Positions 44,053-58,014 of a stretch of DNA of 64,000 bases are shown one piece after another; position 1 is the stretch's first letter; the number at the start of each line of letters is the position of its first letter. The position numbers were made by a program, and so were the translations under genes. The stretch spans positions 568,862 through 632,861 of the forward strand of contig CAWJBC010000021.1 in assembly GCA_963840975.1 (NCBI GenBank). The letters run 5' to 3'. The notes below the pieces were generated by a model, which worked only from the letters and a program-made list of their open reading frames with translations, searched no databases and had not been told where the DNA came from. The DNA comes from an uncultured Bacteroidales bacterium (GTDB taxonomy: Bacteria; Bacteroidota; Bacteroidia; Bacteroidales; JAADJA01).

Positions 44053-44292
44053 TAAGGAATTGAAATTAAACTGAATAAAAATTACCTGCTGCCAGCAGCG
44101 GTTTGTCAAAAGGCTGGCTGACGTGCTTCGTATGAACATTTGTGCTGAAAGCCCATCCTTCGCCAAGTGCCAAAACCGTTAATAATAATATCCCTTCACT
44201 TTTCTTACAGACTCAATCCAAAGCATAAGTCTTCTGACGAGTTATCACTAAATATAAAAGGAACGCCTTCCGGTATTCCTTTCTTTTCCACT

Positions 44293-44586
44293 AAGCATTC
44301 CTGAAAACCGATAGGCTTATCAGGAATCCACAATCCACAATTAATTCTTGTCATTCTTAATTATAGTCAATTTAGTCATTGTGCTGGTTTCCTGCCTGCC
44401 CGACTGCATCATTAAGGCGGGCCTGCCCGACTGCATCATTAAAGCGGGCCTGCCCGACTGCGTCATTCCCGTCCGTTCCGGAACGGGCGGACAGGCGGGC
44501 CTGCGCAGGAATGCCACGTCGTCAGAAGGGAATCCACAATTAATTCTTGTCAATCTTAATTTTAGTCAATTTAGTCATTATGCTGG
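44293..44586. repeat. second locus of the composite GC-rich repeat (about 1.4 units; the 27-bp module is present twice)
   Basis: The GCATTCCTGAAAACCGATAGGCTTATCAGGAATCC module comes first. The unit follows with CTGCCCGACTGC[ATCATTAAGGCGGGCCTGCCCGACTGC][ATCATTAAAGCGGGCCTGCCCGACTGC]GTCATTCCC.... The unit head then restarts at 44500-44586. Confidence 0.9.
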
Positions 44587-44683
44587 ATTCCTGTTCCCAC
44601 CTTACCCTAACCACCTTACCACCCCGGCTTCCTTACCCTTGCCATCACCCAACAAAAAAAGGAACCCCTTTCGGAATTCCTCT
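44582..44683 (+). repeat. ~100-nt repeat ending in a terminator-like hairpin, copy 1
   Basis: GCTGGATTCCTGTTCCCACCTTACCCTAACCACCTTACCACCCCGGCTTCCTTACCCTTGCC...AAAAAAAGGAACCCCTTTCGGAATTCCT is near-identical to 45862-45970. Confidence 0.85.
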
Positions 44684-44762
44684 CGAGCATTTCTTATGAA
44701 AACCTAATAATTTCTAGCCAATGGTAATGCCATGATTGCTGTCGGCAATCCATACGTGTTTT

Positions 44763-45071
44763 CTATCCGACAAAACGTTTATGGATGTCATCCCAGGTAA
44801 TGTATTGCGCCCAGCAGTGCTCTGAAACAAATTTTAGGTACATAATTGCCATTTCCGGCTTATGTCTTTTATAGAATTCATATACTTTTCGCTTTCCTTT
44901 GTGGCTGTATATTGTTATCAGGCCCGTTTGTTCCTTGTTTGTCGGCATATCAATACGAAGAACTTCATCCCCTAACTGGTTTAAATTTTCCAGTGACTGG
45001 GTGCTGTGAACGACTTCCATTAATCCAGCATTTCTTTTGTCTTTTGCGAAAATTTGTTTTGTAGCTTCCAT
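44763..45071 (-). CDS. hypothetical protein
   Basis: The 102-aa ORF has no recognised motif. Confidence 0.45.
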   Translation of the reverse strand: MEATKQIFAKDKRNAGLMEVVHSTQSLENLNQLGDEVLRIDMPTNKEQTGLITIYSHKGKRKVYEFYKRHKPEMAIMYLKFVSEHCWAQYITWDDIHKRFVG

Positions 45072-45109
45072 GACAGATATATTTTTAGTTATTTTATCAG
45101 TTATCTATT

Positions 45110-45544
45110 TTAAATTTTAGAAAAGTTAAGGTAATCGGTACCGCCGTTTCCTCCGCTCACATCTTCCAGCTTAATGACTGACGATCTCTGTTCAATTACA
45201 TGCCAGTCATCTGTAATTTCGTCAAAAGGAGACATCCCTGTAAATGTGATATACAATTTCACCTGGCTGTCATCATTGCCGGTGCTCCATGTTCCTGTTT
45301 CAGTTATTGAACCATTGGTTGCAGTAATGGTCCCATTGCTCCCGAAATTAAAGGTGTAACCGTTAAATTTGTAAGTTTCATCCTTGCCGGAATCATTGAA
45401 ATATTCAACTTTCCAGGTACCCTGGGTAATTGTTCCACTGGTATTATCAGGGGATACTGAGTCATCACTTTTATTAGTGCAGCCAATCATGATTGCCAGC
45501 ATGACCAAAAAGGTCAGAATTGATTGTTTGTTTATCGTTCTCAT
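45110..45544 (-). CDS. lipoprotein, hypothetical
   Basis: The 144-aa ORF has a signal peptide plus lipobox (LAIMIGCTNKSDD). Confidence 0.6.
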   Translation of the reverse strand: MRTINKQSILTFLVMLAIMIGCTNKSDDSVSPDNTSGTITQGTWKVEYFNDSGKDETYKFNGYTFNFGSNGTITATNGSITETGTWSTGNDDSQVKLYITFTGMSPFDEITDDWHVIEQRSSVIKLEDVSGGNGGTDYLNFSKI

Positions 45545-45861
45545 ATTATTACGTTTTAAGTTTATTTATAAAATGTCTGATTCTCTCTTTTATGCTTAAT
45601 TACTTTTTATTACCATGATTCACTTTCCGTATTTCAACCTTATCAAATAATAATTTACAAGCAAATTAATGATCAATACAGAAGGATAAAAAATTTAATT
45701 CGGTCAATCGGTAAATGCTGCTATTGAACCGGGATAATTTGAGCTTCAAGGGAAATTTCCTTATGTCATACGAAGTGTATGCGGTGGCCATTGTTATTCA
45801 ATCCGGTCTATCCTTCGATGCTTCGACAAGCTCAGCAGGACCTCATGATGACCGGCATTGT

Positions 45862-45970
45862 TCTGGATTCCTGTTCCCACCTTACCCCTACCACCTTACC
45901 ACCCCGGCTTCTTTACCCTTGCCTTTTTCCTTAATAAAAAAAGGAACCCCTTCCGGAATTCCTTTCTTCC
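45862..45970 (+). repeat. ~100-nt repeat ending in a terminator-like hairpin, copy 2
   Basis: The sequence is TCTGGATTCCTGTTCCCACCTTACCCCTACCACCTTACCACCCCGGCTTCTTTACCCTTGCC...AAAAAAAGGAACCCCTTCCGGAATTCCTTTCTTCC. On the minus strand the hairpin is followed by T7, downstream of gene 46113..47102. Confidence 0.85.
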
Positions 45971-46112
45971 TTTGTGCTTTCCCTGTTAGGAAAGTTCAGG
46001 ATAAACATCAAATGTTTTTACAAATTTAAAAGAACGGACACCAAAGCATCAACCCTTTAATAGTTCAACATCTAACATCATACTTCTAACATTTATCATC
46101 ATCCGTCTCTTC

Positions 46113-47102
46113 CTATTCTTCTTCCTGGTCTATCAGCAAAAAGCTGTATTCCCCCTCATTTATTTCATCAGGGTTATAAACCATCAGGAACAGGTTGGTA
46201 TCGGCCCCAAGGTCAGAAGCAAATACTTCCGACTCATCGCCCGGAACAAGCTCTATAGCCGAACCCGGAACAGGGTCGGTAGGCAGCTTTGCCGTATAAA
46301 ATTTGAGCGATGTACCGCCAATGTTTGCAAGACTAAAATATGAATTGGCATCAAAGCCACCCTCAAGTATCGTAACCGATGCCAGTGCAGCTACCTTACC
46401 CGTTACGGGTTCGGGTGCCGGAGTGGAACCGTTTCCGTTTGCAGTGGAACGAAGCAAGCGCAGGTCGAAGAATTTTTCGATGAGCGACGGATTATCTTTG
46501 TATTTATCCATCAAGCTCCCCAGGTTGCCATAGAGCGTGTCGGCAGCTACCTTCCTTTTTATTTCCAGGATATCCGAAGCATCCTTGGTCAGTTCTTCGC
46601 AATGCGTCTGAACATTTCGTATTCCTAAAATATCTGTATGAAATTGATCCACATCTGTTTTTGTTGCCAACAGGGCAGCATAAGGTTTCAGGGCGGTGCC
46701 CATGGCATTGATGTTGCTGATCCTGATGTCGTAGGGTCCTTCGCGGAAACCGCTGCGTCCGTTAGGAAATATCTTTTTATAATCGGCAGTATCCTCAAGG
46801 TGTACTGCTCTAACCTGGGCGTCCCACTGTTTAATTTTAACATCAACAAGTTCTTCCAACTTCTCATTAAACCTAAAGGTTTCGCCCTCCCAGTTGCCTT
46901 TAGCAGCCGTCCAGCCGCTGTAGGCAATAGAATAATCCTCGTACACGGGAGTGGTACGGGTGAACAGAACTTCAATGTCCGGATCGGACTTCATTGCTTC
47001 CAGTTTCGAATAGCAATCCGTAATCAACAGAAGCATTTTCTTGTAACTGTTTTTTGTTGCGGTATCGAATAAATTCGATATGTACCGCCAAACTTTTTTC
47101 AT
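46113..47102 (-). CDS. hypothetical protein
   Basis: The 329-aa ORF has no signal peptide and no recognised motif. It has an acidic C-terminus. Confidence 0.6.
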   Translation of the reverse strand: MKKVWRYISNLFDTATKNSYKKMLLLITDCYSKLEAMKSDPDIEVLFTRTTPVYEDYSIAYSGWTAAKGNWEGETFRFNEKLEELVDVKIKQWDAQVRAVHLEDTADYKKIFPNGRSGFREGPYDIRISNINAMGTALKPYAALLATKTDVDQFHTDILGIRNVQTHCEELTKDASDILEIKRKVAADTLYGNLGSLMDKYKDNPSLIEKFFDLRLLRSTANGNGSTPAPEPVTGKVAALASVTILEGGFDANSYFSLANIGGTSLKFYTAKLPTDPVPGSAIELVPGDESEVFASDLGADTNLFLMVYNPDEINEGEYSFLLIDQEEE

Positions 47103-47289
47103 ACTTGAAAAAATTTAGTGAATAATTAAAAATTTCAATTCGAACAGTTGATGCTTTGATGTTATTTGCTAATACTTTTTGAAAAGAAAAAAGGTTTCAA
47201 AAAAAGTTAAAAATTTTATTTTTTTTTTACTGACTTCTTGTCAGTTTTTGGCTTATTTTTTCAAACCCGCGCCAATTGCGTCAGTGAAC

Positions 47290-47480
47290 GGTATTTTTAT
47301 TTGTGAACCTGTTTTTCGACGTCGAAAATGGCAATCTTCAATTGCAGATCACGTTTTTCGATGTCGAAAATGGCAGTTTTTATTTGTGAACCTGTTTTTC
47401 GACGTCGTAAAAGGCAATCTTGATTTGCGAATAGGGTTTTTCGACGCCGATAAAGGCAATTTTCATTTGAGGATTGCCTT
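47290..47480. promoter_or_regulatory. array of 4.5 direct repeats of 41-42 bp, each centred on a TTTTCGACGTCGAAAA-type palindrome (operator- or iteron-like)
   Basis: Units start at 47311, 47353, 47394 and 47436, with a partial unit at 47290-47310. The array lies in the divergent intergenic region between gene starts at 47102 (-) and 47956 (+). Confidence 0.6.
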
Positions 47481-47955
47481 TTATGCCGCCTTGCCGGGCA
47501 TTTGATATCCTTACTTATTTCCAATAATTAACCAAATATGATAGTATGGGTGAACAAAGCAGAAATAAATATAAACAGGCGGGTGGTAATAAATATAATT
47601 GCGATTTTAATTGTTGGTGAAAGGGAAGTTTATATATTTGCTGGACTATACTACTTATTTAATAGGACTTAAAAATTGATATACATAACTACCTGAAGTC
47701 TATATAATATCTAAACAAAGTTACATAAGCTAATAGTCGAACCTGAATTATTTAAGAATTAATATTCCTTGAAATAATAAAATAGTTGAAAAGGTAAATG
47801 TATAAATACGTTATGGGTGACAGATATAGAAACCAATTTCCTTCAAAATTTAATTAGAAAATTATCTAAAATAAGTATTGTAATTGATTGATTCTTTATG
47901 ACATTCTTACTGCGGAAATTTTTGATTAATGATTTAATGTAATAAAACTATAAAA

Positions 47956-49230
47956 ATGAAAACATTTTATTTTGTTCTATTGATTAGCCTCTGTTTGACA
48001 AGTTTGGCACAAGAATATACAATTTTTAGTGAACGTGAAGGCGTTAAGGAGCAACCTGTATTTAATATTTATCAAGAACAATCTGGAAGTATTATTTTTC
48101 AAGGAAATAAAGGGATTAATAGATGGGATGGTAAGAGTTGGTCCTTTTTTAACTTTAAAAACCCAGCAATGGGTAAAAAGTATCCTAAAGAATTTCCTGA
48201 TATACTTTCAAATAAAAATGGTTATGTTCTAATTCAAGTTAATGATACCGGTAGTATAGAATTAAATTCATTAGTGGGATATGATACGAAAATTGATAAT
48301 GAAGGAAACCTTTGGTTTCATGATTGGTTATCCCAAAAAATGTTGTACAAAATTGTGGGAAAAGAATGGGTACCTGTCGTCGATTTTCCTAAATCATCGT
48401 CTATTGCTATCGGAGAAGAGTTTGGTAAAGATGATGCAAGAATGTTTATTGATAGTAAAAACAATATTTGGATTCCAACATCAAAGGGTCTTTTTATGTA
48501 CGATTCAAATAAATTGATATCTTTTGGGGAGACATCTAATCTGCCAATTAGGGGTAATTGTACTTTTATGGAAGATTTAACAGGAAATATTTGGATTAGT
48601 TCCAAACATACCGGAATATACAAATATGATGGCATTAAGTGGGAACAGTATAATTCTGCAAATGCTGGGATTGTCAACAACCATATATGTTCTACTATTA
48701 TTGACAAGAATGGAAAAGTATGGGCTGCTCACTATAAAGGAGGTGTGAGCTTTTTTGATGGAAATAAATGGGTGAAAGAAGAACTAGGTGAAAATTATTA
48801 TGCTCCGGGTTTAAATGGAATAAGTGCAGGAGATATAATAATAGGATTAGCTGATGGAAGTGACTGGGACAAATTTCCTTCTCAAATAATTGCTGACAAC
48901 TTAAATAATATCTGGTATGCAGCAACAGGAGGAGGGCTTTTCAAATATGATGGTGCAAAATGGGAACAAATTCAAAAAGTTTCTCCCAATTCTTCTATTG
49001 AAATGATAATTGATTCAAAGGGAAATATTTGGTTTACCAATTATGCAAATATTGGTTCACAACCAGCTGAAGGATTATTTAAATTTGATATAAAAAATAA
49101 TACATGGAATTCCATCTTAAAGAAGAACATTCATAATCTTTTTGAAGATAAAAGTGGAAGTATTTGGTGTACTAGTCGTATAAACGGTCCGATAAGTGAA
49201 GAAGAAATATATTATTTCAAAAACAATTAA
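47956..49230 (+). CDS. secreted beta-propeller protein with two-component-regulator-propeller (Reg_prop)-like repeats
   Basis: The 424-aa ORF has a signal peptide and about 7 repeats of the type GNIWISSKHTGIYKYDGIKWEQY / NNIWYAATGGGLFKYDGAKWEQI. The gene is AT-rich; two 60-nt lines count 37-38% GC. Confidence 0.7.
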   Translation: MKTFYFVLLISLCLTSLAQEYTIFSEREGVKEQPVFNIYQEQSGSIIFQGNKGINRWDGKSWSFFNFKNPAMGKKYPKEFPDILSNKNGYVLIQVNDTGSIELNSLVGYDTKIDNEGNLWFHDWLSQKMLYKIVGKEWVPVVDFPKSSSIAIGEEFGKDDARMFIDSKNNIWIPTSKGLFMYDSNKLISFGETSNLPIRGNCTFMEDLTGNIWISSKHTGIYKYDGIKWEQYNSANAGIVNNHICSTIIDKNGKVWAAHYKGGVSFFDGNKWVKEELGENYYAPGLNGISAGDIIIGLADGSDWDKFPSQIIADNLNNIWYAATGGGLFKYDGAKWEQIQKVSPNSSIEMIIDSKGNIWFTNYANIGSQPAEGLFKFDIKNNTWNSILKKNIHNLFEDKSGSIWCTSRINGPISEEEIYYFKNN

Positions 49231-49642
49231 TGCCTGTTTTAATTATCCCTGTCATGTTTGAAAAAATTGGCTGTGACATGAGGTATCTCTTAAAAATGCC
49301 CCAACCATTTAATGTTACCAAACCATAAATTAGAAACAAAAACTAAAAATAACTCACTCCATGCCCCTCTTCCAAAACTCCGTCATAACAAAGTACCTGC
49401 AAGCCCAAAACAGGGAAAGGATTGCAGCGCAATGGAATGTATTTAAATCGCATTTCCTCAATCCGGTTATTCAGGAGAATATCAGACTAAGCAAGGAAGA
49501 ACAATACCAGGGGGAGTTCCTGATTGATTTGTTTGTAAAGGTACTGGGGTATACTAAAAATCCGGAACCGAACTTTAACCTCACCACCGAATACAAGAAC
49601 ATCAAGGACAGCAAAAAGGCGGATGGTGCCATCTTATTACAA

Positions 49643-49710
49643 CAAGGGGCTTCAGCCCCTTGCAAAAATGAAACCGGAGATGTTTCGAAGCAAGTAATTT
49701 CAGCCCCTTG
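49643..49710 (+). repeat. in-frame palindromic element pair (CAAGGGGCTTCAGCCCCTTG plus a half copy)
   Basis: A perfect 8-bp stem with a 4-nt loop lies at 49643-49662, and the half copy TTTCAGCCCCTTG lies at 49698-49710. The region translates as QQGASAPCKNETGDVSKQVISAPC. Confidence 0.9.
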
Positions 49711-50651
49711 TGTGGTTGGGGTGATTGAACTGAAAGGAACGAATACCACCGACCTGGGCAAGATTGAAACGCAGGCTTTCGGGTACAAGAACAACCAGCC
49801 CGATTGTGTTTATGTGATCACGTCGAACTTCGAGAAGCTGCGGTTTTATATTGACAATGCCATCGAGCACATCGAGTTTAATTTGTTTGCCCTCACGGAA
49901 AAGGATTTTGAATTGCTGTGGCTTTGCCTGGCTTATGAGAACATCGAAAAGGGAATTGCGAAAAAGATAAAGGATGAATCGGTCGGGCGGGAAGATGAAA
50001 TTACGAAGCAGCTTTATAAGGATTATTCGCTGTTCAAGCGGGAACTGCATCAAAACCTCGTGGCGCTGAATGCGGGTTACGGGGCGCTGGAACTTTTTAA
50101 GAAATCGCAGAAGCTGCTCGACCGGTTTTTGTTTTTGTTCTTTGCCGAGGATCGCATGTTGTTGCCTCCCAATTCGGTTAAGCTGGTGCTGAACGACTGG
50201 AAAGATTTGCAGGAAAGGGATGTGGACGTAACGCTTTACGAACGGTTTAAAAAGTATTTCGAATACCTGAACACCGGCTTTAAAGGCAAACGGTACGATG
50301 TGTATGCTTATAACGGCGGGTTGTTTAAACCGGATGCGGTGCTGGATGCCGTGAAGATTGACAGTGAACTGCTTTACCGGCATACGCACAGGCTTTCGGA
50401 ATATGATTTTGTGAGCGAGGTGGATGTGAACATACTGGGGCATATTTTTGAGAACTCGCTGAATGAGCTGGACGAAATAAAGGCGCAACTGGAGGGGAAG
50501 GAAATTGACAAGAGCAAGACCAAGCGCAAAAAGGACGGTGTGTTTTACACGCCCAAATACATTACCAAGTACATTGTGGATAATACCGTTGGCAAACTGT
50601 GCAGCGAAAAGAAAACCGAACTGCAGATAAACGAGGAGGAATACACATCAA

Positions 50652-50713
50652 CAAGGGGCTTCAGCCCCTTGCAGGAAAAGGACGCAAAACAAACAAGAGG
50701 CTTCAGCCCTTTG
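50652..50713 (+). repeat. in-frame palindromic element pair
   Basis: CAAGGGGCTTCAGCCCCTTG lies at 50652-50671 and CAAGAGGCTTCAGCCCTTTG at 50694-50713. The region translates as TRGFSPLQEKDAKQTRGFSPLP. Confidence 0.9.
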
Positions 50714-51139
50714 CCTAAAAAGGAAAAACAAAAGCAATTAGATAAACTAAATGAATATCGCAACTGGCTTTTGCAGCTTACCATTTGCGACCCGGCTTGT
50801 GGTTCGGGGGCTTTCCTGAACCAGGCTTTGGATTTCCTGATCAGGGAACACAAATACATTGATGAACTGCATGCCAAGCTGTTTGGCGATGCGCTGGTGC
50901 TGAGCGATATTGAAAACAGCATACTCGAAAACAATTTGTTCGGGGTGGACCTGAACGAGGAAAGCGTGGAGATAGCCAAGCTTTCGTTGTGGCTGCGAAC
51001 GGCACAACCCAACCGCAAGCTGAACGACCTGAACAACAACATCAAATGCGGCAACTCGCTGATTGATGACCCGGCAGTGGCAGGAGATAAAGCTTTTAAC
51101 TGGCAGAAGGAGTTTCCGAAGGTTTTTAAAGAGAAGAAT

Positions 51140-51658
51140 AAAAAGATATGGCATGTAACTACCGTCACACATGATACACGGACTTCGCAACGAATGATAG
51201 ACTACAAGGTACGGGAGCGAAGGTCTGACGGAGAAATGCATGTTGACCGATCTATCTTCTTGAATGACGAAGAATCGCTAAAACTTACCGAAATTATTTG
51301 CGATGTCATAATTGAAAATGAATTTAACTGCCTTGCCTACAATGTTTGCGGCGATCATGTTCATTTGATCCTGGTTTGCGAAGAAGATGAATTACCGGAA
51401 ATTGTACGAAAGCTGAAAGGCAAGTCGGCACAAAAGTTTAAGGAATACAAAGGAATAAATAAGGAAGAAACTTTCCATTTGTGGGCTCAAAAATTCAACA
51501 GCAAAGAAATTACCGGCGATGAGCAATTGAGTTCTACGATAAACTATATTGCGACAAACAGGGAAAAACATGAACTGCCCGACATCAACAAGGGGCTGCA
51601 GCCCCTTGTAAAGAAAATGACATGCACACTGGAACACGCATTTCGGACTGAGTATAAG
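51140..51658 (+). mobile_element. HUH (Y1) transposase-like module nested in-frame in the R-M gene
   Basis: The module reads IWHVTTVTHDTR..., GDHVHLIL (HUH at 51356-51364), KLKGKSAQKF, HLWAQKFNSKEI and INYIATNREKH (Tyr codon 51545-51547). It is flanked by MTase sequence: EFPKVFKEK upstream and KGGFDVVIGNPPY downstream. Confidence 0.65.
51589..51608 (+). repeat. in-frame palindromic element
   Basis: CAAGGGGCTGCAGCCCCTTG translates as NKGLQPLV. It shares the 5' flank ACATCAACAAGGGGC with the 50652 copy. Confidence 0.9.
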
Positions 51659-52792
51659 GGAGGGTTTGATGTGGTGATTGGGAATCCGCCGTATGTGGAG
51701 CAAGTTTAAATGAAGAGGATATTAACTATCTTTAGAAAAATTTACTTGACAGTTATAGATCATTCTGAGGTTTATTACTTATTCATTGAAAAAGCAGTAA
51801 ATGTTTTAGCAAAAAATGATGGCTATATTGGATATATTACACCAAATGCATGGTTGTCGAACAAATATGCAAAAAAATTACGTGAATTATTACTATATGA
51901 AACTACTTTTTTGAATATTGATTAATTTCAATCGAAAAATTGTTTTTGAGGAAGCAAATGTTGAAACTGCAATATTTATTTCGAAAAAAGTTTGACAATT
52001 AACAGAACATTTAGTTTTAGTTGGGCAAGATTTGAATAATTTATATCAATATGATTAAAATGAATGGAAACAAAATAATAACTACCTCATATCTATTGCG
52101 CCTGATCAGAAAATAAATCAAATAATTAAGAAAATAAATCTGGCAGAATATAGACTTGAAGATAAACTTGATATTTCTAATGGATTTAAACCATATCAAG
52201 TTGGATATGGAATAAACTTACAAGGTATTCCCTTAACTATTGAAGATGTTAACAGTCGTATCTATCATTCTGAATAAAAATGAAGATAATACTTTCAGGA
52301 GAGAAATTAAAGGGAAAGGTATGTAATAGATATTCTTTCAAATGGGAAGAAGAATTATATAAATTGGGGTAAATGGTTAGATGTCACCTAGAGAAGCATT
52401 CATTATTTGAACAACCAAAAATTATTAATCAGACAAGTTATTAGTGATTATTTCTATGCATTTTTGGATAAGGATAAATATTTTGCAGATCAATACGTTA
52501 TATGTATGCACTAATTATAATGGATAAAGAAAAGGAAAATTTAGAATATCTATTTATGTCTAATTAAACAGCAAATTATATCGGTTTTTATCATTAGAAA
52601 GTTATATTCAGAAGAAGATCGATTTATTTCCAAAAATAAAGGTTAATGAGTTAAAAAATCTTCCAATAAAGAAATTAGAAAAAGAAAATCAACAACCTTT
52701 TATCGAGAAAGCAGACCTAATGCTTTCCTTAAACAAGGAATTGCAGGAAACCTCACAAAAATTCCAAAGGACCTTACAGCGAAGACTGGAAA

Positions 52793-52812
52793 CAATGGGC
52801 TTCAGCCCATTG
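52793..52812 (+). repeat. in-frame palindromic element (variant with symmetric arm changes)
   Basis: CAATGGGCTTCAGCCCATTG translates as MGFSPLW. Changes on both arms keep the palindrome perfect. Confidence 0.9.
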
Positions 52813-53269
52813 TGGGATAATGTGCCTAAAAAGCTTGAGGAATGGTATTTATTAAGCTATGCAGAGTTCATCAAAGAATTGGGCAAGAAGAAAATAAAGC
52901 TATCGCTGAGTGATGAAGCGGAATGGGAAAGCTACTTTACCCAGGAAGCCACCAAAGCACTTGAATTAAAATCGAAAATAGAAGCAACTGATAAAGAAAT
53001 AGATGGGATGGTTTATGGGTTGTATGGGTTGACGGAGGAGGAGGTAAAAATTGTAGAAGGGGGATATTGATTTTGAATAAAATAATATACACCTTTATGC
53101 AGCAAAAGTATACTAATACCACAGACGCTTGTTTGATATTTATAGCTGTTTAAAGATTGAGGTTTATATATAAGCAAGTTGTGCGTCGGCATGACGGAAG
53201 AACATGGCGAGTACAAAGGTCAACTGAACTTGAAAATAGAGATATTATTCCGATTGAATAAAAAACAAA

Positions 53270-54253
53270 ATGGCGGTTGATTTAAATGATTTTAAGCGAA
53301 AAGCTGAATGCAATTACAAAAATGAACGTTACTCAGTTCGGGATAACGGAGCAGTTTTTCGTCATCCTCGCGAAAACAAACCATTGCGAAGAAATGATAA
53401 TCAGTGGACTTTTGGAACACCAAACAATAATGGTTATATGCTTATAGCTTCGGAAGTCGTTCATCGCATCGTAGCATACGCTTTTTTAGGAGAACCACCA
53501 ACTACTCAACATATTGTTGACCATATAGATACAAATCGTCAAAACAATCGCCCTGAAAACCTTCGTTGGCTAACAAAGTTGGAAAACAACCTGAAGAATC
53601 CAATAACTGTAAAAAAAATTGTACTCCACTGTGGGAGTATCGAAGCTTTTCTTAAAGACCCATCAATTTTAAGAAATCATGTGAACGAAGACCCTAATTT
53701 TAGTTGGATGAGGACTGTCACTCCAAAAGAGGCTCAAATATCTTGGGAACGCTTGAGTAATTGGGCAAATACGGATAGTATTTCGACAAAAGGCGGTTCA
53801 TTGGGTGAATGGATATTTAAGAATAACCAAAACACACCCTCATTTCAAGAAACGTCAGAATTTGTAACTTCCGATACGCCAAATGCGATTCAAAAGGATT
53901 GGAAAACTCCGTCCGTATTTCCTTGTTGCCCAAAGGAAAGAACCGATAATCCGATTGATACCTATACTGCAAATTTAGATGTTGAAAAAATATTTTCACA
54001 AAATCAATATTCAAACTCAATTATTGAGGATTTTGCAACATCCAAAGACAAGAAAAAATTGTGGGTTATGTGTAAAAGTAGTGATGATAACGCAATAAAA
54101 CCTTGGTCATTGGCACAAGTAACCTATGAAAATGAATTATTTGTTCATAAAAACCTTGGTAGTTTTATCCAAAAAGACGGTGCAGAAAAACAGTTTACTA
54201 TTGTGCAAGGACTTGAATGGACAGGTGGTCAGACTTTTGATGACTTATGTTAA
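53270..54253 (+). CDS. HNH homing-type endonuclease (NUMOD4-like N-terminus plus HNH_3) with a C-terminal extension of unknown function
   Basis: The 327-aa ORF has YSVRDNGAVF..., NGYMLIASEVVHRIVAYAFLG...HIVDHIDTNRQNNRPENLRWLTKLEN. One 60-nt line counts 30% GC. Confidence 0.75.
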   Translation: MAVDLNDFKRKAECNYKNERYSVRDNGAVFRHPRENKPLRRNDNQWTFGTPNNNGYMLIASEVVHRIVAYAFLGEPPTTQHIVDHIDTNRQNNRPENLRWLTKLENNLKNPITVKKIVLHCGSIEAFLKDPSILRNHVNEDPNFSWMRTVTPKEAQISWERLSNWANTDSISTKGGSLGEWIFKNNQNTPSFQETSEFVTSDTPNAIQKDWKTPSVFPCCPKERTDNPIDTYTANLDVEKIFSQNQYSNSIIEDFATSKDKKKLWVMCKSSDDNAIKPWSLAQVTYENELFVHKNLGSFIQKDGAEKQFTIVQGLEWTGGQTFDDLC

Positions 54254-54278
54254 ACGAAAAATTAATGAAATATTTAAA

Positions 54279-54373
54279 CCCCCGCACCCGTGAGTGTTCC
54301 GCAGGATCACTTGTTGGAATAGGCCCGCCTGAATGAAGCAGTCGGGCAGGTAAGCAAAGTTTTTAACTTTGCC
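54279..54373 (+). repeat. left direct repeat bracketing the 54.5-55.6 kb cassette
   Basis: The sequence is CCCCCGCACCCGTGAGTGTTCCGCAGGATCACTTGTTGGAATAGGCCCGCCTGAATGAAGCAGTCGGGCAGGTAAGCAAAGTTTTTAACTTTGCC. Confidence 0.85.
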
Positions 54374-54548
54374 AGCATAAGCATAGCTCGCTTGCGATTG
54401 TATCGCGGGATTTAAAGTTTATCAGAATTACCCCGGTTTGGGATTGGAATCTGGTTACTTCCAAAATAATCAAATAATTTTGAACCAGATTGAGAAGAAC
54501 GGGAAATGAAGGAGGTTTCACTTTTGGGAAATATTGTATTTTTGTTAA

Positions 54549-54863
54549 ATGAAACTGATTGATTCAAATAAAGACAGGCTTATCGAACTTTGCATTAACC
54601 ACAAGGTAAAAGAATTGTATTTGTTTGGTTCGGCATTAACTGATAGATTTCAGGATTCCAGCGATATTGATATGCTGATCCAGTTTTATCCGGACGATTT
54701 AATGGACTATTTCACCTACCCAAAAGTGGCTGTTCAGTGGTTAAATGAAGCTTTGTGCTTTTATCAAAGTTTGTGCTTGGTTGACAATGAAGTGCTCCGA
54801 AATCACCACCTTCGGGTAGCGCAAAACGTTGTAGGCAATTTAATAAACAAACTTCTATTATGA
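54549..54863 (+). CDS. nucleotidyltransferase-domain protein (MNT/MntA-like)
   Basis: The 104-aa ORF has ELYLFGSALTDRFQDSSDIDMLIQF, a pol-beta-type GS...DxD motif. The C-terminal half is divergent. Confidence 0.6.
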   Translation: MKLIDSNKDRLIELCINHKVKELYLFGSALTDRFQDSSDIDMLIQFYPDDLMDYFTYPKVAVQWLNEALCFYQSLCLVDNEVLRNHHLRVAQNVVGNLINKLLL

Positions 54864-55561
54864 AATACTTTGCATTAATGACTTTGATAGTTCTTGTAAG
54901 TTGCGGAAAGAAAGATAATATTGATGAAAATCCTAATGGGATTGTTCAACCCAAAAGTGATACCTTATCCGTAGAATTAATAAATGGTAACTTAAGGATA
55001 GTTATTGATACATTTCACCCCTTAGAATATCTCCCGGTTTTTCCAGGTTCTTATTGGAAATATGCAGACAATAATAATGATACTATAACAAGTACTACTT
55101 CCTTAAATTTTCTGCCTGACAGTTTCAGCGCAAATAGAACGACTTGGGTGAATACTATCAGTTGGGTTCCCTTTCTTGATGGAATGGGTATTTGGGGATA
55201 TGGTCGTAATGATTGTGGTGTTCATATTAACGGAGGCTGTGAGTTAACACAGCTACTTAATGTTCAGATACCGGTTGGTTCGGTTTGGCTTACCGAATAT
55301 TTTTCTCCAGGACCTCATTTAACAAAGACTTATAGAGAAATTATGACAATGGATACATCATTACTAATAAATAGTGTAGTATATGATTCTGTTGTTAAAA
55401 TCAAAGAGTACGTTGAATATTTATATAGTAATGATCCTCCTCCAAGAGTAACATTTGAATATTACAGCAAAAATGTCGGACTAGTGAAGTTAATAGAATA
55501 TAATAATTGGGACAGTAGTGTTTATGAAAAGAACATTATTGATTACTTTATCAATAAATAA
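54860..55561 (+). CDS. lipoprotein, hypothetical
   Basis: The 233-aa ORF has the lipobox LIVLVSCGKKDN. Its start overlaps the upstream stop (ATGA). Confidence 0.6.
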   Translation: MKYFALMTLIVLVSCGKKDNIDENPNGIVQPKSDTLSVELINGNLRIVIDTFHPLEYLPVFPGSYWKYADNNNDTITSTTSLNFLPDSFSANRTTWVNTISWVPFLDGMGIWGYGRNDCGVHINGGCELTQLLNVQIPVGSVWLTEYFSPGPHLTKTYREIMTMDTSLLINSVVYDSVVKIKEYVEYLYSNDPPPRVTFEYYSKNVGLVKLIEYNNWDSSVYEKNIIDYFINK

Positions 55562-55629
55562 AACTGTACATAATAGCCGCTTACTAGCCAGTGCGACGGG
55601 TTTCGCTAGACTTCAAAGTTTTCGGTTGA

Positions 55630-55774
55630 CCCCCGCACCCGCGAGTGTTCCGCAGGATCACTCGTGGGAATAAACCCGCCTGAATGACTAATTCGGGTAG
55701 GCCCACCTGTCCGCCCGTTCCGGAACGGACGGGAATGAAGCAGTCGGGCAGGTAAGCAAAGTTTTTAACTTTGC
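55630..55774 (+). repeat. right direct repeat bracketing the cassette (with an extra internal palindrome module)
   Basis: The sequence is CCCCCGCACCCGCGAGTGTTCCGCAGGATCACTCGTGGGAATAAACCCGCCTGAATGA[...GGCCCACCTGTCCGCCCGTTCCGGAACGGACGGGAATGA]AGCAGTCGGGCAGGTAAGCAAAGTTTTTAACTTTGC. The bracketed part is the reverse complement of the core of the 39.8/44.4 kb repeat. Confidence 0.85.
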
Positions 55775-55933
55775 ATGCGTGAGTATACAGAATTGAAACA
55801 ATGGGCTAATCCGGTTAACAATGGAATGAAGTATGAAATGAAACCCACAAGTCAACGCCATCACATAAGGCAAGGCAGGAAAACATTCGGGTGGTGAGAT
55901 CAAAGCTGTGACTGTTAAATACCCGTGGTCAGG

Positions 55934-56908
55934 TTAATCTTTTATCAGTAATTTCCTGGAATATTCTTTATTCCTGATTACTGTCTTCAGAAAATATACC
56001 CCGGCATTTAAATGATCAACATTCAACCTGTATTCCTTTTCGGGAAAAGCCTGTACGCCTTCATGCCCGAACACCGGTTCCCCGAAAATATTAAATATCA
56101 TGATTGAATTTATCTCATCCTGAAATCCGCTTAAATTAAGCGTAACATAATTTTGTGCCGGGTTGGGATACAGCTGTATGCTGTTGCCATCCGTCTCTCC
56201 AATGCCGGTATTTTCGCAGATATATACCATAATCGTATCCTGGTATTGGCAGTTGTTTGTATCCAAAACCGTAACGGAAAATTCATGTAAACCGACGTCA
56301 TAAACGGACCCGCTCACTAATAAATATTGTTCAGTTGATCCATCCTGCCATTCATAGGAAACGTAATTATCACCTGCATTGAGTATAAGCGTATCATATT
56401 CACAAATGATGGTATCATTACCAAGCTCAAGTGCATCAGCGGTGAAATCAACATAAATCGAGTCCGAACCTATACAACCATGTACGTCAACCACCGTTAC
56501 AAAATAAAGCCCTTCTTCCGTTACAATATGAAATGGCAAGGTGGAACCATTGATCCACAAATAAGAGATGAAAACGGGTGGCGGTTCCAAAATGAGAGAG
56601 TTGCCGAAACAAATAAGCGTATCATTGCCCAGCTCGGGATCGGGATAGGGCCAGTAACCGATGTTGATCGTATCGGAATAAAGGGTCGTCCCGATGAAGG
56701 CATGCACCCAAAAAGTTCCGCCCTCAGTTACCATAAATGTTTGTAATGTGGAGCCATCCTGCCAGAGATAGCTGTCGAATCCGGGTCCGGCATCCAGAAT
56801 GTGAATATAGCCGATACACAAATTAATGTCCGGCCCCAAATTTATTGTAGTTTGCGAAAAGGAGATAACAGGCAGGCAAAAGATCAAAAGGATAAAAATC
56901 TTTTTCAT
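55934..56908 (-). CDS. T9SS C-terminal-domain protein with three YxWxxGST repeat modules
   Basis: The 324-aa ORF has a signal peptide and the repeats FDSYLWQDGSTLQTFMV, ISYLWINGSTLPFHIV and VSYEWQDGSTEQYLLV. The CTD reads LYPNPAQNYVTLNL...GVYFLKTVIRNK. Confidence 0.8.
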   Translation of the reverse strand: MKKIFILLIFCLPVISFSQTTINLGPDINLCIGYIHILDAGPGFDSYLWQDGSTLQTFMVTEGGTFWVHAFIGTTLYSDTINIGYWPYPDPELGNDTLICFGNSLILEPPPVFISYLWINGSTLPFHIVTEEGLYFVTVVDVHGCIGSDSIYVDFTADALELGNDTIICEYDTLILNAGDNYVSYEWQDGSTEQYLLVSGSVYDVGLHEFSVTVLDTNNCQYQDTIMVYICENTGIGETDGNSIQLYPNPAQNYVTLNLSGFQDEINSIMIFNIFGEPVFGHEGVQAFPEKEYRLNVDHLNAGVYFLKTVIRNKEYSRKLLIKD

Positions 56909-57147
56909 GACATTTTTAATAATTATCCTTCAAAATTAAACAATAGTAAAATACCAACCAGGTATTATCCTGATTATGGCATAATTATATATTGATGTGC
57001 TAAACAAAGAATTGTTGAATTCTGTTGTAAAAGAAATCGCGAATCTCACGTATCTCAATCTAAAGCGATAAGGGCTGTATTTTTTGTGATTTGCACAGAT
57101 TATGGAATCAGATTTAATAAATGTTATTGCCGGGGTTTGTCCCATTT

Positions 57148-57793
57148 TGCCCGTAGGGCATGAATATCAATAGAAAATTAATTCGCATGAAATTTCTTTC
57201 CCATAGGGAATGTACAACATGCAATCATTCAAGCTAAAGGATCAATATCTATTCAACAAGCTTAAAAATGTATCGTTCGTCATATTCAATATCATATTCT
57301 TTAAGAAACTGAAGGTATTCTTCACGAAAGGATACTTTCTTATGATGCTGTTGTTGGTCTTCAATATATTTGATTTTTTCAGGTAATTGTGATTTACCGA
57401 GTGAAAATGCTCCAAATCCCTCCTGCCACGAAAACTTTCCAACTGATAAATGGTTTTGATTTATCCATAAGGATGTACTTCTTTTTAAATGATACATCAA
57501 ATCCGAAGGTGCTTGTTTTGGGCTCATACTGATCAATATATGAATATGATCGCTCATCCCGTTGATTATATACAATTTATGTCCTTGTTGAATAATAATG
57601 CCATTCATGTATTTGTAAATGTCCTCTTGCCATTTTCGATGGATAAGGCATAAACGATCCTGAACTGCAAAAACATAATGAATGTACAATTGGGTATAGG
57701 TATTAGCCATATTTTTATTGTTTTTGTTAATGTCCTACGGACAATTTATTTTGTTTATTTATTTGTTCTATTGACATATAAGCCCTACGGGCT
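57148..57793 (-). mobile_element. RAYT/IS200-like unit: a Y1 transposase gene flanked by inverted REP hairpins
   Basis: The left flank reads TGCCCGTAGGGCATGAATATCAATAGAAAA (57148-) plus TTCCCATAGGGAA (57198-57210). The reverse complement of the right flank reads AGCCCGTAGGGCTTATATGTCAATAGAACA (to 57793), with TGTCCTACGGACA at 57731-57743. Confidence 0.7.
57249..57710 (-). CDS. IS200/RAYT-family Y1 (HUH) transposase
   Basis: The 153-aa ORF has YTQLYIHYVFAVQDR, the HUH motif SDHIHILIS, WQEGFGAFS and KYIEDQQQHH. Confidence 0.85.
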   Translation of the reverse strand: MANTYTQLYIHYVFAVQDRLCLIHRKWQEDIYKYMNGIIIQQGHKLYIINGMSDHIHILISMSPKQAPSDLMYHLKRSTSLWINQNHLSVGKFSWQEGFGAFSLGKSQLPEKIKYIEDQQQHHKKVSFREEYLQFLKEYDIEYDERYIFKLVE

Positions 57794-58014
57794 AATAAAT
57801 TCTTATCACACGAAATTAAGATTTTAATCATTGTAGTCAATACTAAATCGTCACATCATAAAAAAGCAGAATTAAGCACATCAAAATAAAATATAGCCCT
57901 GATTATAATCCATAGTTTTGAACTTAGATTTGAATTTACCCTGTACAAAGGAGTTCCGCAGGATCACTCATGAACACAAAAGCAATTACAAAAGACTATC
58001 TTTGAATCAAATTA

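What the first reader, a model, noticed from the sequence alone, without database searches (positions are those of the whole stretch)
51140..51658. HUH/Y1 transposase-like module nested in-frame between methyltransferase motifs of a type IIG R-M gene
Seen in sequence:
- About 173 codons inside ORF 49361..51709 translate to KIWHVTTVTHDTRTSQRM...LKLTEIICDVIIENEFNCLAYNVCGDHVHLILVCEEDELPEIVRKLKGKSAQKF...FHLWAQKFNSKEITGDEQLSSTINYIATNREKH.
- The order and spacing match Y1 HUH transposases (IS200/RAYT). The first strand is hHVxxVT..R, and the HUH triad lies at 51356-51364. A KGxS motif, W-x-x-x-F and a YIxxN Tyr helix (Tyr codon 51545-51547) follow.
- The flanks are methyltransferase sequence. NWQKEFPKVFKEK lies upstream and KGGFDVVIGNPPY downstream (NPPY at 51683-51694).
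- The module is in the host frame and has no stop. The one line counted inside it (51601-51660) is 47% GC. It ends about 50 nt after a copy of the gene-specific 20-nt palindrome.

Established knowledge, by recall: in gamma-class N6-adenine MTases of the Eco57I/type IIG family these two flanks are separated by only a few residues.

Inference: this is either an IS200/RAYT-like gene captured as a domain fusion, or an insertion that must be bypassed in an IStron-like way. I know of no described example of either arrangement.
Basis: partly seen in the sequence, partly recalled or inferred. Interest (0 to 1): 0.8.

Follow-up and report, generated by a model that had tools for sequence, protein, structure and literature searches.

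The report
Hairpin-cutting transposase nested in restriction gene
A small transposase-type domain sits in-frame inside the methylase part of a restriction-modification gene, its matching DNA hairpins are written into that gene's own coding sequence, and the same arrangement turns up in well over a hundred Bacteroidota genes yet in none of the papers I could search.

Summary
Codons 594-766 of ORF 49361..51709 are a Y1 HUH (IS200/RAYT-type) domain: Pfam PF01797 at 51 bits against a cut-off of 23.

It is neither a recent IS insertion nor an assembly artefact. All 138 related fused proteins I examined carry the module in the same loop, and 137 keep HUH and 136 keep the Tyr motif. dN/dS is 0.04.

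About 18 close homologues lack the module and read ...FPQVFEK|GGFDVVIGNPPY. The module's phylogeny does not follow that of the host gene, so it behaves as an exchangeable cassette.

The "gene-specific palindrome" is the module's cognate REP-like hairpin. Stand-alone relatives of the module are solitary genes flanked by the same CAAGGGG...CCCCTTG palindromes. 55 of 57 module-bearing genes contain such palindromes in-frame, against 0 of 18 module-less genes.

The window's own copy is broken. A TAA follows NPPYVEQV, and the target-recognition region (51710-52719) is decayed.

Best reading: a RAYT/REP-type element nested in a type IIG restriction-modification gene. Its benefit to the host is unknown. 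No bypass is needed, and Rfam finds no intron. I found no publication describing this arrangement.

The parts
49361..51709 (+). Intact 782-aa ORF: the N-terminal two thirds of an Eco57I/MmeI-like type IIG restriction-modification gene. It holds the PD-ExK nuclease, the helical spacer, MTase motifs I to IV, and the nested Y1 module.
   Evidence: Eco57I, MmeI_Mtase, MmeI_hel and N6_Mtase hits. (D88, E123, K125, DPACGSG and NPPY are invariant). (homologue P0003 scores 958 bits against PADLOC REase_MTase_IIG).
51131..51657 (+). Nested Y1 HUH (RAYT/IS200-type) module. Its borders are known to within about 2 codons: VFK-[EKNKKIWH...AFRTEY]-KGGFDV.
   Evidence: Pfam PF01797 at 51.4 bits. Empty-site homologues define the borders. 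The module spans a whole stand-alone protein. The AF2 model has pLDDT 86.9, and the 30 best PDB matches are all IS200/IS605 TnpA or TnpA_REP.
51356..51364 (+). HUH triad (His-Val-His).
   Evidence: Sequence. [DE]HxH is kept in 137 of 138 fused proteins. It aligns to the HUH of ISDra2 TnpA.
51545..51547 (+). Putative catalytic Tyr (Y729) in the motif Y-I-x-x-N-R-x-K-H.
   Evidence: Sequence. The motif is kept in 136 of 138 fused proteins. It aligns to 'KYIES' of ISDra2 TnpA.
49643..49662 (.). REP-like palindrome CAAGGGGCTTCAGCCCCTTG, in-frame in the nuclease loop between D88 and E123-x-K125. A 48-nt insert ending in a second right arm follows, up to 49710.
   Evidence: -9 kcal/mol, z -4.2. L081 shows a compensatory C-G to T-A change here.
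50652..50671 (.). REP-like palindrome, in-frame in the linker before MTase motif I.
   Evidence: -9 kcal/mol, z -4.1.
50694..50713 (.). Degenerate REP copy with 2 mismatches. It is the second unit of a 42-nt tandem duplication that L081 lacks.
   Evidence: no stable hairpin.
51588..51609 (.). REP-like palindrome ACAAGGGGCTGCAGCCCCTTGT inside the C-terminal tail of the Y1 module, where it encodes NKGLQPLV.
   Evidence: -10 kcal/mol. The same 22-mer occurs in the REP array beside a stand-alone Y1 gene in L083. 20 of 57 fused genes have a REP at this tail site.
51683..51694 (+). MTase motif IV (NPPY).
51707..51709 (+). Premature in-frame TAA, placed where full-length homologues continue into the target-recognition region.
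51710..52719 (+). Decayed remainder of the MTase and the target-recognition domain. It is AT-rich and has at least 4 frameshifts and many stops.
   Evidence: Composition. tblastn gives 47% identity to the TRD of P0064 across the stops. Three-frame translation.
52720..53070 (+). Intact ORF for the conserved C-terminal helical end of the gene.
   Evidence: 86% nucleotide identity to the 3' end of the L081 gene. dN/dS 0.18.
52793..52812 (.). REP-like palindrome CAATGGGCTTCAGCCCATTG, in-frame in the C-terminal ORF, where it encodes MGFSPLW.
   Evidence: -9.3 kcal/mol, z -3.8.

Best explanation
**What it is.** The segment is a complete RAYT-like Y1 HUH transposase. It belongs to the IS200/IS605 superfamily and to a clade whose free-living members are solitary genes flanked by CAAGGGG...CCCCTTG hairpins. 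It is nested in-frame in a surface loop of the methyltransferase domain of a type IIG restriction-modification enzyme, just before motif IV. This is a conserved and widespread architecture in Bacteroidota.

**How it works (inferred, not shown).**
- The domain keeps its metal-binding HUH and its nucleophilic Tyr.
- It binds, and nicks and rejoins, its cognate hairpins on single-stranded DNA, mostly near its own gene.
- Because that neighbourhood is now an ORF, only copies that are in-frame, free of stops and located in protein loops survive.
- Module plus hairpins behave as a nested, largely self-interested RAYT/REP element that rides on a horizontally mobile restriction-modification gene.
- The module is exchanged between alleles as a cassette, either by recombination or by its own precise insertion.

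**This window.** The copy here is a dead allele. Its target-recognition part has decayed.
For: **Shown.**
- Domain identity: Pfam hit, PDB sequence hits and fold hits.
- Same insertion site in 138 of 138 fused proteins; 137 keep HUH and 136 keep the Tyr motif; 106 of 138 are at least 1150 aa.
- dN/dS for the module is 0.042, against 0.037 for the MTase N-half.
- Empty-site alleles read VF(E/A)K|GGFDV.
- More distant, plasmid-borne relatives match aa 1-591 only, so they also lack the module.
- Y1-bearing and Y1-less alleles share about 90% identical N-termini.
- Module distances do not correlate with N-terminal distances (Spearman 0.01 over 780 pairs). The window's module is 71% identical to L017, whose N-terminus is 63% identical. 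Alleles with 78-80% identical N-termini have modules only 46-47% identical.
- The switch in affinity falls at the module's left border.
- Hairpins: 55 of 57 Y1-bearing genes contain them, against 0 of 18 Y1-less genes (Fisher p = 2e-15).
- Hairpin density is 0.80 per kb inside Y1-bearing genes, against 0.083 per kb in their flanks.
- 75 of 156 copies lie inside the module. Copies occur in all three frames. Compensatory changes keep the stems.
- Stand-alone relatives cover the whole module. They are flanked by the same hairpins, and L083 has an array of at least 6.
- A verified stand-alone gene in Polaribacter batillariae is 75% identical to fused modules.
- There are no hairpin remnants in Y1-less alleles.

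**Inferred.** Hairpin binding and cleavage, action in cis, and the selfish character of the element.
Against: - There is no biochemical evidence.
- Strong purifying selection on a single-copy domain fits a host-beneficial role as well as it fits a selfish one.
- The exact 22-mer hairpin also occurs in 45 metagenome contigs with no Y1 ORF in the stored flanks. The hairpins are therefore not confined to Y1 genes.
- The module has no hairpin at its left border. It is not a complete IS200-type unit as it stands.
- The trees are neighbour-joining trees on the 80 best loci, chosen with a Y1-bearing query. The direction of change (gain or loss) and the number of events are not settled.
- Cassette exchange could be plain homologous recombination. 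The target-recognition domains are swapped just as often between Y1-less alleles.
Confidence: 0.6

Rival explanations
1. Exapted defence domain. The Y1 domain has been recruited by the restriction enzyme for a host function. It might recognise or nick single-stranded or hairpin DNA of invaders such as ssDNA phages, conjugating plasmids or rolling-circle replicons. It might instead act as a sensor or regulator of the enzyme. On this reading the intragenic hairpins are a side effect.
For: - dN/dS is 0.042, and the catalytic motifs are kept in at least 98% of 138 fused proteins.
- Most fused genes are full-length, with intact nuclease and MTase motifs.
- The architecture persists across Bacteroidales, Flavobacteriales, Chitinophagales and Sphingobacteriales.
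- The full-length AF2 model folds confidently, with the module as a compact unit.
Against: - Close Y1-less alleles are intact and common. The enzyme does not need the domain.
- The module is shuffled independently of the host gene.
- Stand-alone relatives sit among housekeeping genes with no defence context.
- No PADLOC family matches the module.
Confidence: 0.22
2. Diversification or regulation device. The Y1 domain and the hairpins drive programmed rearrangement of the gene, such as swapping specificity or module cassettes. Alternatively they regulate its expression through hairpins in DNA or mRNA.
For: - The gene is a mosaic. Target-recognition regions differ completely between alleles that are 90-98% identical elsewhere.
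- Hairpins lie near several module borders.
- Several truncated alleles end just after NPPY.
Against: - Target-recognition cassettes are swapped just as sharply between Y1-less alleles that have no hairpins: L048/L051, L055/L056, L059/L061 and L070/L079.
- In the window the breakpoints lie 83-87 nt from the nearest hairpins. They coincide with the ends of conserved protein motifs.
- No silent cassettes were seen next to the genes.
Confidence: 0.1
3. Recent IS200-type insertion that disrupts the gene and must be bypassed (IStron-like), or an assembly chimera joining transposase sequence to methylase sequence.
For: - The module is a complete transposase-type ORF.
- The window's gene is indeed broken downstream of it.
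Against: - The same in-frame junctions occur in at least 138 proteins from independent assemblies and in isolate genomes, including Flavobacterium restrictum, F. psychrotolerans, Jejuia pallidilutea and Pedobacter changchengzhani.
- Module divergence goes down to about 40% identity with dN/dS 0.04, so the fusion is old and translated.
- Rfam finds no intron or other family.
- Pfam finds no Hint/intein domain.
- The breaks in the window lie outside the module.
Confidence: 0.02

Closest known systems
RAYT / REP systems (REP-associated tyrosine transposases, for example E. coli TnpA_REP, PDB 4ER8)
   Same: - Y1 HUH fold with HUH and Tyr.
- One copy per locus rather than many.
- Associated with short GC-rich hairpins that cluster next to the gene. 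Stand-alone relatives have arrays of them.
- Hairpin stems are kept by compensatory change.
- JGI already labels the proteins RayT.
- 4ER8 ranks third in the fold search and has the longest alignment.
   Different: - Here the transposase is a domain nested inside another enzyme.
- Its hairpins lie in-frame in the host ORF.
- No dense genome-wide REP population was seen. There are none in the other 60 kb of the window, and few in 600 kb of flanks.
- The hairpins lack the GTAG or CGTC tags of the classical REP super-families (PMC3733652; sequence inspection).
- By sequence the module is closer to IS200/IS605 TnpA (E = 1e-7) than to TnpA_REP (E = 1e-3).
IS200/IS605 TnpA (ISDra2, IS608)
   Same: - Best sequence and fold matches. 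HUH and the Tyr helix align.
- A hairpin lies near the 3' end of the coding unit, like a right-end hairpin.
- Module-less alleles show no scar, and this family is known for precise insertion and excision (established knowledge).
   Different: - There is no left-end hairpin at the module border.
- No TnpB partner is present.
- The module is not multi-copy.
- It carries an extra conserved N-terminal strand (hHITxxTHxSRxSxRM) and a C-terminal tail.
- It lies within a host ORF.
Intragenic palindromic elements (Rickettsia RPEs; intragenic REPs of Di Nocera et al. 2013, PMC3733652)
   Same: Short palindromes inserted in-frame in protein-coding genes, tolerated in loops, and adding 7-30 residues.
   Different: Those elements are scattered over many unrelated genes. 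Here they are concentrated in the one gene that encodes their putative enzyme, at 0.80 per kb against 0.083 per kb in the flanks.
Inteins carrying homing endonucleases, and IStrons (analogy only)
   Same: - A selfish nuclease-coding unit inside a conserved site of a host gene.
- Presence/absence polymorphism among close alleles.
- A phylogeny that does not follow the host gene's.
   Different: - There is no Hint splicing domain and no group I intron.
- The module is not removed. It stays as a folded domain of the mature protein.
Type IIG/IIL restriction-modification enzymes (MmeI 5HR4, BpuSI 3S1S, DrdV 7LO5; BREX PglX)
   Same: The host protein has the N-terminal PD-ExK nuclease, the helical spacer, a gamma-class MTase and a TaqI_C-type target-recognition domain. 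Fold and profile matches support this.
   Different: No characterised member carries a domain between motif III and motif IV. Plasmid-borne and other close relatives have a 37-residue connection there.

Membership tests
Y1 HUH transposase superfamily (Pfam Y1_Tnp PF01797; IS200/IS605 TnpA) | Significant profile match above the curated cut-off | tested here: met
   51.4 bits against a cut-off of 23, E = 1.4e-13. A profile of the clade hits 2XM3, 2A6M, 2EC2 and 4ER8.
Y1 HUH transposase superfamily (Pfam Y1_Tnp PF01797; IS200/IS605 TnpA) | HUH metal-binding motif and a single catalytic Tyr on the C-terminal helix | tested here: met
   H-V-H at 51356-51364 and Y at 51545-51547. Kept in 137 and 136 of 138 fused proteins. 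Both align to the ISDra2 motifs.
Y1 HUH transposase superfamily (Pfam Y1_Tnp PF01797; IS200/IS605 TnpA) | TnpA fold | tested here: met
   AF2 model with pLDDT 86.9. The 30 best Foldseek PDB hits are all IS200/IS605 TnpA or TnpA_REP, with target-normalised TM 0.52-0.68.
Y1 HUH transposase superfamily (Pfam Y1_Tnp PF01797; IS200/IS605 TnpA) | Element bounded by subterminal left-end and right-end hairpins | tested here: inconclusive
   A hairpin lies in the 3' tail of the module (51588-51609). None lies at the left border (z = -0.36). Stand-alone relatives do have hairpins on both sides.
Y1 HUH transposase superfamily (Pfam Y1_Tnp PF01797; IS200/IS605 TnpA) | ssDNA cleavage and strand-transfer activity | not testable with these tools
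   Needs biochemistry.
RAYT (REP-associated tyrosine transposase) | Single-copy Y1 gene physically associated with cognate REP hairpins | tested here: met
   55 of 57 fused genes contain the hairpins, against 0 of 18 module-less genes. Stand-alone relatives are flanked by the same hairpins.
RAYT (REP-associated tyrosine transposase) | Abundant genome-wide REP or REPIN population | tested here: inconclusive
   There are none outside the gene in the 64-kb window, and almost none in 600 kb of flanks. The same 22-mer is scattered singly in 45 other metagenome contigs. Whole genomes were not available.
RAYT (REP-associated tyrosine transposase) | Placement in one of the described RAYT sequence groups (Bertels et al. 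2017, PMC5581495) | not tested
   Reference sequences for the groups were not available here. E. coli TnpA_REP is a weaker sequence hit than IS200 TnpA.
Type IIG restriction-modification enzyme (Eco57I/MmeI-like) | N-terminal PD-(D/E)xK nuclease, and gamma-class MTase motifs I and IV, in one polypeptide | tested here: met
   D88, E123-x-K125, DPACGSG and NPPY are invariant. Pfam hits Eco57I, MmeI_Mtase and MmeI_hel. PADLOC REase_MTase_IIG scores 958 bits for P0003.
Type IIG restriction-modification enzyme (Eco57I/MmeI-like) | Intact MTase C-half and target-recognition domain | tested here: not met
   In the window, 51710-52719 carries a premature TAA, at least 4 frameshifts and many stops. Full-length homologues have TaqI_C PF12950.
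IStron / group I intron-borne IS | Group I intron ribozyme flanking the transposase | tested here: not met
   No Rfam family reaches gathering score in 44000-58000.
Intein | Hint splicing domain with a Cys/Ser/Thr at each junction | tested here: not met
   No Hint or intein Pfam hit. The junctions read EK-NKK and EYK-GG.

The most novel reading that the evidence does not exclude
The module is an ORF-preserving 'domain transposon'. On this reading, a Y1 HUH transposase inserts itself precisely and in-frame at the ...GAAAAA|GG... (EK|GG) codon junction of naive alleles of this restriction-modification gene family. It can also leave, to become a stand-alone REP-flanked gene. It therefore homes like an intein-borne endonuclease, but stays in the mature protein. 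It then seeds in-frame copies of its hairpin in its host's coding sequence, possibly by fold-back, templated synthesis that builds perfect palindromes partly from host sequence.
Probability: 0.2. Interest if true: 0.85.

Novelty: new variant of a known kind. Interest (0 to 1): 0.7.

Why it matters
RAYTs are a long-standing puzzle. They are single-copy, conserved transposase relatives with no agreed function.

This clade offers an unusually tractable test case for three reasons:
- The transposase is a domain of an enzyme whose other activities, restriction and methylation, are easy to assay.
- Its hairpin substrates lie inside the same gene.
- Natural alleles with and without the domain exist at about 90% identity, several of them in cultured isolates.

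It also shows that a transposase can persist for a long time as an in-frame passenger inside a defence gene. It shows, too, that REP-type hairpins can colonise coding sequence in all three frames. Both points bear on how mobile elements and defence genes become entangled, and on how proteins gain inserted domains and loops.

There is a practical consequence for annotation. These genes are inconsistently labelled 'transposase', 'RayT', 'BREX PglX' or 'N-6 methylase'.

Tried and rejected
- **IStron or intron bypass.** Rfam found nothing, and the module is in-frame everywhere.
- **Assembly chimera.** The same junctions occur in at least 138 independent sequences.
- **Alternative genetic code for the stops in 51710-52719.** Rejected. 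There are frameshifts as well as stops, and more than one stop type.
- **Y1 and hairpins needed for swapping of target-recognition cassettes.** Rejected. Y1-less, hairpin-less allele pairs show the same sharp swaps.
- **Y1 travels together with the MTase N-half, bounded by the hairpins at about nt 1290 and 2250.** Rejected. The affinity switch is at the module's own left border.
- **Independent capture of a different stand-alone lineage in L009.** Not supported. Its module is equidistant (53-57% identity) from fused and free forms.
- **The whole restriction-modification gene as a hairpin-bounded transposon.**
  - Window and L081 homology ends at the ORF edges without terminal hairpins.
  - Only L018 has flanking hairpins.
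- **Plasmid or phage carriage of the fused gene.** None found. Plasmid relatives lack the module, and the phage hits are ordinary IS200 transposases of Nodularia phages.
- **Source organism of the window.**
  - The exact look-up of P0001 found no record.
  - T9SS Por_Secre_tail proteins in the window indicate Bacteroidota.
- **Literature.**
  - Six searches and three papers gave no description of the fusion.
  - Intragenic REPs in general are known (PMC3733652).
Full report
**1.

ORF 49361..51709 (+, 782 aa) is present.

The 173 codons 51140-51658 match Pfam Y1_Tnp (PF01797) at 51.4 bits against a cut-off of 23 (E = 1.4e-13). The flanks match Eco57I, MmeI_Mtase and N6_Mtase. The Eco57I profile is split: positions 1-73 lie before the module, and positions 102-162 lie in the next ORF.

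A profile of the module's clade hits the solved IS200/IS605 transposases ISDra2 (E = 1e-7), IS608 and the Sulfolobus enzymes. It also hits the E. coli REP-associated transposase 4ER8. HUH and the Tyr helix are aligned in these matches. An AlphaFold model of the module has pLDDT 86.9. Its 30 best PDB matches are all from these families.

**2. It is a conserved architecture, not an accident of this genome**

- The 120 best homologues listed are mostly about 1200 aa. All but two carry a PF01797 hit between the Eco57I halves, followed by a TaqI_C target-recognition domain. They come from Flavobacterium, Lutibacter, Bacteroidales, Paludibacteraceae and other Bacteroidota.
- The two exceptions, P0044 and P0075, also show the module when aligned.
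- Of 138 fused proteins, all have the insert between KCGNSL and GNPPY. 137 keep [DE]HxH, 136 keep Y..N[RK]xKH, and 106 are at least 1150 aa.
- The nuclease residues D88 and E123-x-K125, and MTase motifs I and IV, are invariant.
- Between the window and its 87%-identical relative L081, dN/dS is 0.042 for the module and 0.037 for the MTase N-half.
- A full-length model of P0003 folds with pLDDT 82.8, and 88-93 in the module core (residues 600-670). Its best matches are BrxX/PglX, CamA, BpuSI, MmeI and DrdV.
- PADLOC files the protein under type IIG, in a 1066-position model that corresponds to the module-less form.

**3. Module-less alleles exist, and the module is a cassette**

A scan of one genome per species gave 556 relatives, of which 80 were kept.

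- About 18 of the 80 have only 37 residues between KCGNSL and GNPPY, reading ...FPQVF(E/A)K|GGFDVVIGNPPY.
- The module-bearing genes read VFKEK-NKKxWH...AFRxEYK-GGFDV. This sets the borders at about 51131 and 51657, to within 2 codons.
- More distant, plasmid-borne relatives (33-39% identity) match residues 1-591 only. The module-less state is therefore probably ancestral.
- Module-bearing and module-less alleles are interleaved in a tree of the N-terminal 590 residues. Several such pairs share about 90% identity there: L008/L062, L038/L053, L006/L069 and L026/L065.
- Module distances are uncorrelated with N-terminal distances (Spearman 0.01 over 780 pairs).
  - The window's module is 71% and 68% identical to those of L017 and L019, whose N-termini are 62-63% identical.
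  - Alleles with 78-80% identical N-termini carry modules only 46-47% identical.
- The change of affinity falls at the module's left border.
- Three loci carry an unrelated 108-aa coiled-coil insert in the same loop, and one carries a 77-aa insert. The loop is permissive.

**4. The palindrome is the module's cognate hairpin**

*In the window.* The palindrome occurs at five sites plus a half site. All are inside this gene and none is elsewhere in the 64 kb. The search gave 10 strand-matches against 0.07 expected. Four copies are stable DNA hairpins.

*Across loci.*
- 55 of 57 module-bearing genes contain GC-containing perfect palindromes of this type, against 0 of 18 module-less genes (p = 2e-15).
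- Density is 0.80 per kb in the genes and 0.083 per kb in their flanks.
- Copies within one gene resemble each other. Copies in different genomes differ in the central bases, for example GGGGCTGCAGCCCC, GGGGTTTAAACCCC, GGGAGCATGCTCCC and GGGGATTAATCCCC, while remaining palindromic.
- Close pairs show compensatory changes.
- Copies occur in all three frames, with counts of 48, 65 and 43. Nearly half (75 of 156) lie inside the module. The rest lie in the nuclease loop, the helical spacer, the linker before motif I, and the C-terminal region.

*Stand-alone relatives.*
- A search of 1.84 billion representative proteins found 437 relatives at E no greater than 0.001. Many are stand-alone proteins of 155-195 aa that align over the whole module.
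- Three of these were examined, and each sits alone among housekeeping genes.
- The KSB1 gene (L083) is flanked by an array of TACAACAAGGGG-N6-CCCCTTGTTGTA hairpins. One contains the same 22-mer as window 51588-51609.
- The Polaribacter batillariae gene has one hairpin about 30 nt upstream and one just after the stop codon. It is 75% identical to fused modules of Flavobacteriaceae, so free and nested forms interconvert.

*A caveat.* The exact 22-mer occurs in 55 metagenome contigs, and only 10 of them show a Y1 ORF in the stored flanks. The other 45 are mostly single intergenic hairpins in genomes of 32-69% GC. The hairpin family is strongly enriched at Y1 genes but is not confined to them.

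**5. What the evidence says about function**

- Target-recognition cassettes are swapped as sharply between module-less, hairpin-less alleles as between module-bearing ones. The module is therefore not needed for that.
- Module-less alleles carry no hairpin remnants in their N-terminal framework. Their density is 0.21 per kb, which is background. Yet relatives with about 90% identical N-termini have hairpins there. This favours gain of the module, followed by hairpins, in naive alleles. Wholesale recombination is the alternative.
- At some loops the palindrome is built partly from host sequence. I could not explain this.

I conclude that the most likely reading is a nested RAYT/REP-type element riding on a mobile restriction-modification gene. 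Catalysis and action in cis are inferred by homology. An exapted host function remains a serious rival, because selection on the domain is strong.

**6. The window's copy is dead**

- A TAA at 51707-51709 follows NPPYVEQV.
- 51710-52719 is AT-rich, with GC as low as 23-29% against 46% upstream. It is homologous to the target-recognition region of P0064 (47% identity) and carries at least 4 frameshifts and many stops.
- The last 116 codons (52720-53070) are intact, and they are 86% identical at the nucleotide level to L081.
- Homology to L081 stops at the ORF edges.
- The surrounding genes include T9SS-sorted proteins, which points to a Bacteroidota genome.

**7. Novelty**

No paper in the searchable library describes a Y1/RAYT domain nested in a restriction-modification enzyme. 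In-frame intragenic REPs as such are known (PMC3733652), as are RAYT/REP systems and type IIG enzymes. I therefore rate this a new variant of a known kind.

**8. Limits**

- There is no experimental evidence.
- The trees are neighbour-joining trees built on loci chosen with a module-bearing query.
- Structures are predictions.
- Whole genomes could not be scanned.

Noticed in passing
window 47293-47469: Intergenic tandem repeat with a 42-nt period and 4.1 copies. Each unit holds the palindrome TTTTTCGACGTCGAAAAA. It is unrelated to the REP-like family in the restriction-modification gene.
   Followed up: no
window 53270-54253 (+): A 327-aa ORF with an HNH_3 domain (PF13392, E = 2e-17). It also matches a PADLOC homing-endonuclease model. 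It lies directly downstream of the broken restriction-modification gene.
   Followed up: partly
window 49663-49710 and 50650-50733: Two local rearrangements at the hairpins. The first is a 48-nt insert that ends in a second copy of the right arm TCAGCCCCTTG, and L081 shares it. The second is a 42-nt tandem duplication of the hairpin unit, which is single in L081.
   Followed up: partly
L067, L071, L080 (108 aa) and L074 (77 aa), between KCGNSL and GNPPY: Unrelated inserts occupy exactly the same MTase loop as the Y1 module. The 108-aa insert looks like a coiled coil (PDYLKLIKEK...AEQA...). The loop is therefore a general hot spot for insertions.
   Followed up: no
L018 (Parasediminibacterium sp. 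JCM 36343), 7852, 7888 and 11663: This module-bearing gene has no palindrome inside it. Two lie just upstream, in opposite orientation, and one lies just downstream.
   Followed up: no
L086-L140 (metagenome contigs): The exact 22-mer ACAAGGGGCTGCAGCCCCTTGT occurs as single copies in many unrelated genomes of 32-69% GC. In L127 it follows a tRNA 3' end and precedes a T-run. In L103 it lies in-frame in an unrelated 482-aa ORF.
   Followed up: partly
REP-like palindromes in 57 module-bearing genes (L001-L081 and the window): 120 of 156 copies are perfect through the centre (GCATGC, TTTAAA, ATTAAT, CTTAAG, TTGCAA or CTGCAG). Among the imperfect centres, the coding strand reads TTCA 12 times and TGAA never.
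   Followed up: partly
L008 vs L062, L012/L016 vs L076, L026 vs L065 (nuclease loop and the linker before motif I): Where a module-bearing allele has a palindrome and a close module-less allele does not, part of the stem is pre-existing host sequence and only its complement is new. This suggests templated (fold-back) formation rather than simple insertion.
   Followed up: partly
P0016, P0045, P0079, P0120 and the window's P0001: Several truncated alleles from different assemblies end at or within about 40 residues of the NPPY motif. That is the left edge of the swappable target-recognition cassette.
   Followed up: no
window 54549-54863 (+): A small nucleotidyltransferase ORF (Polbeta/NTP_transf_2) lies next to the HNH gene. 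It may be part of a toxin-antitoxin-like pair.
   Followed up: no
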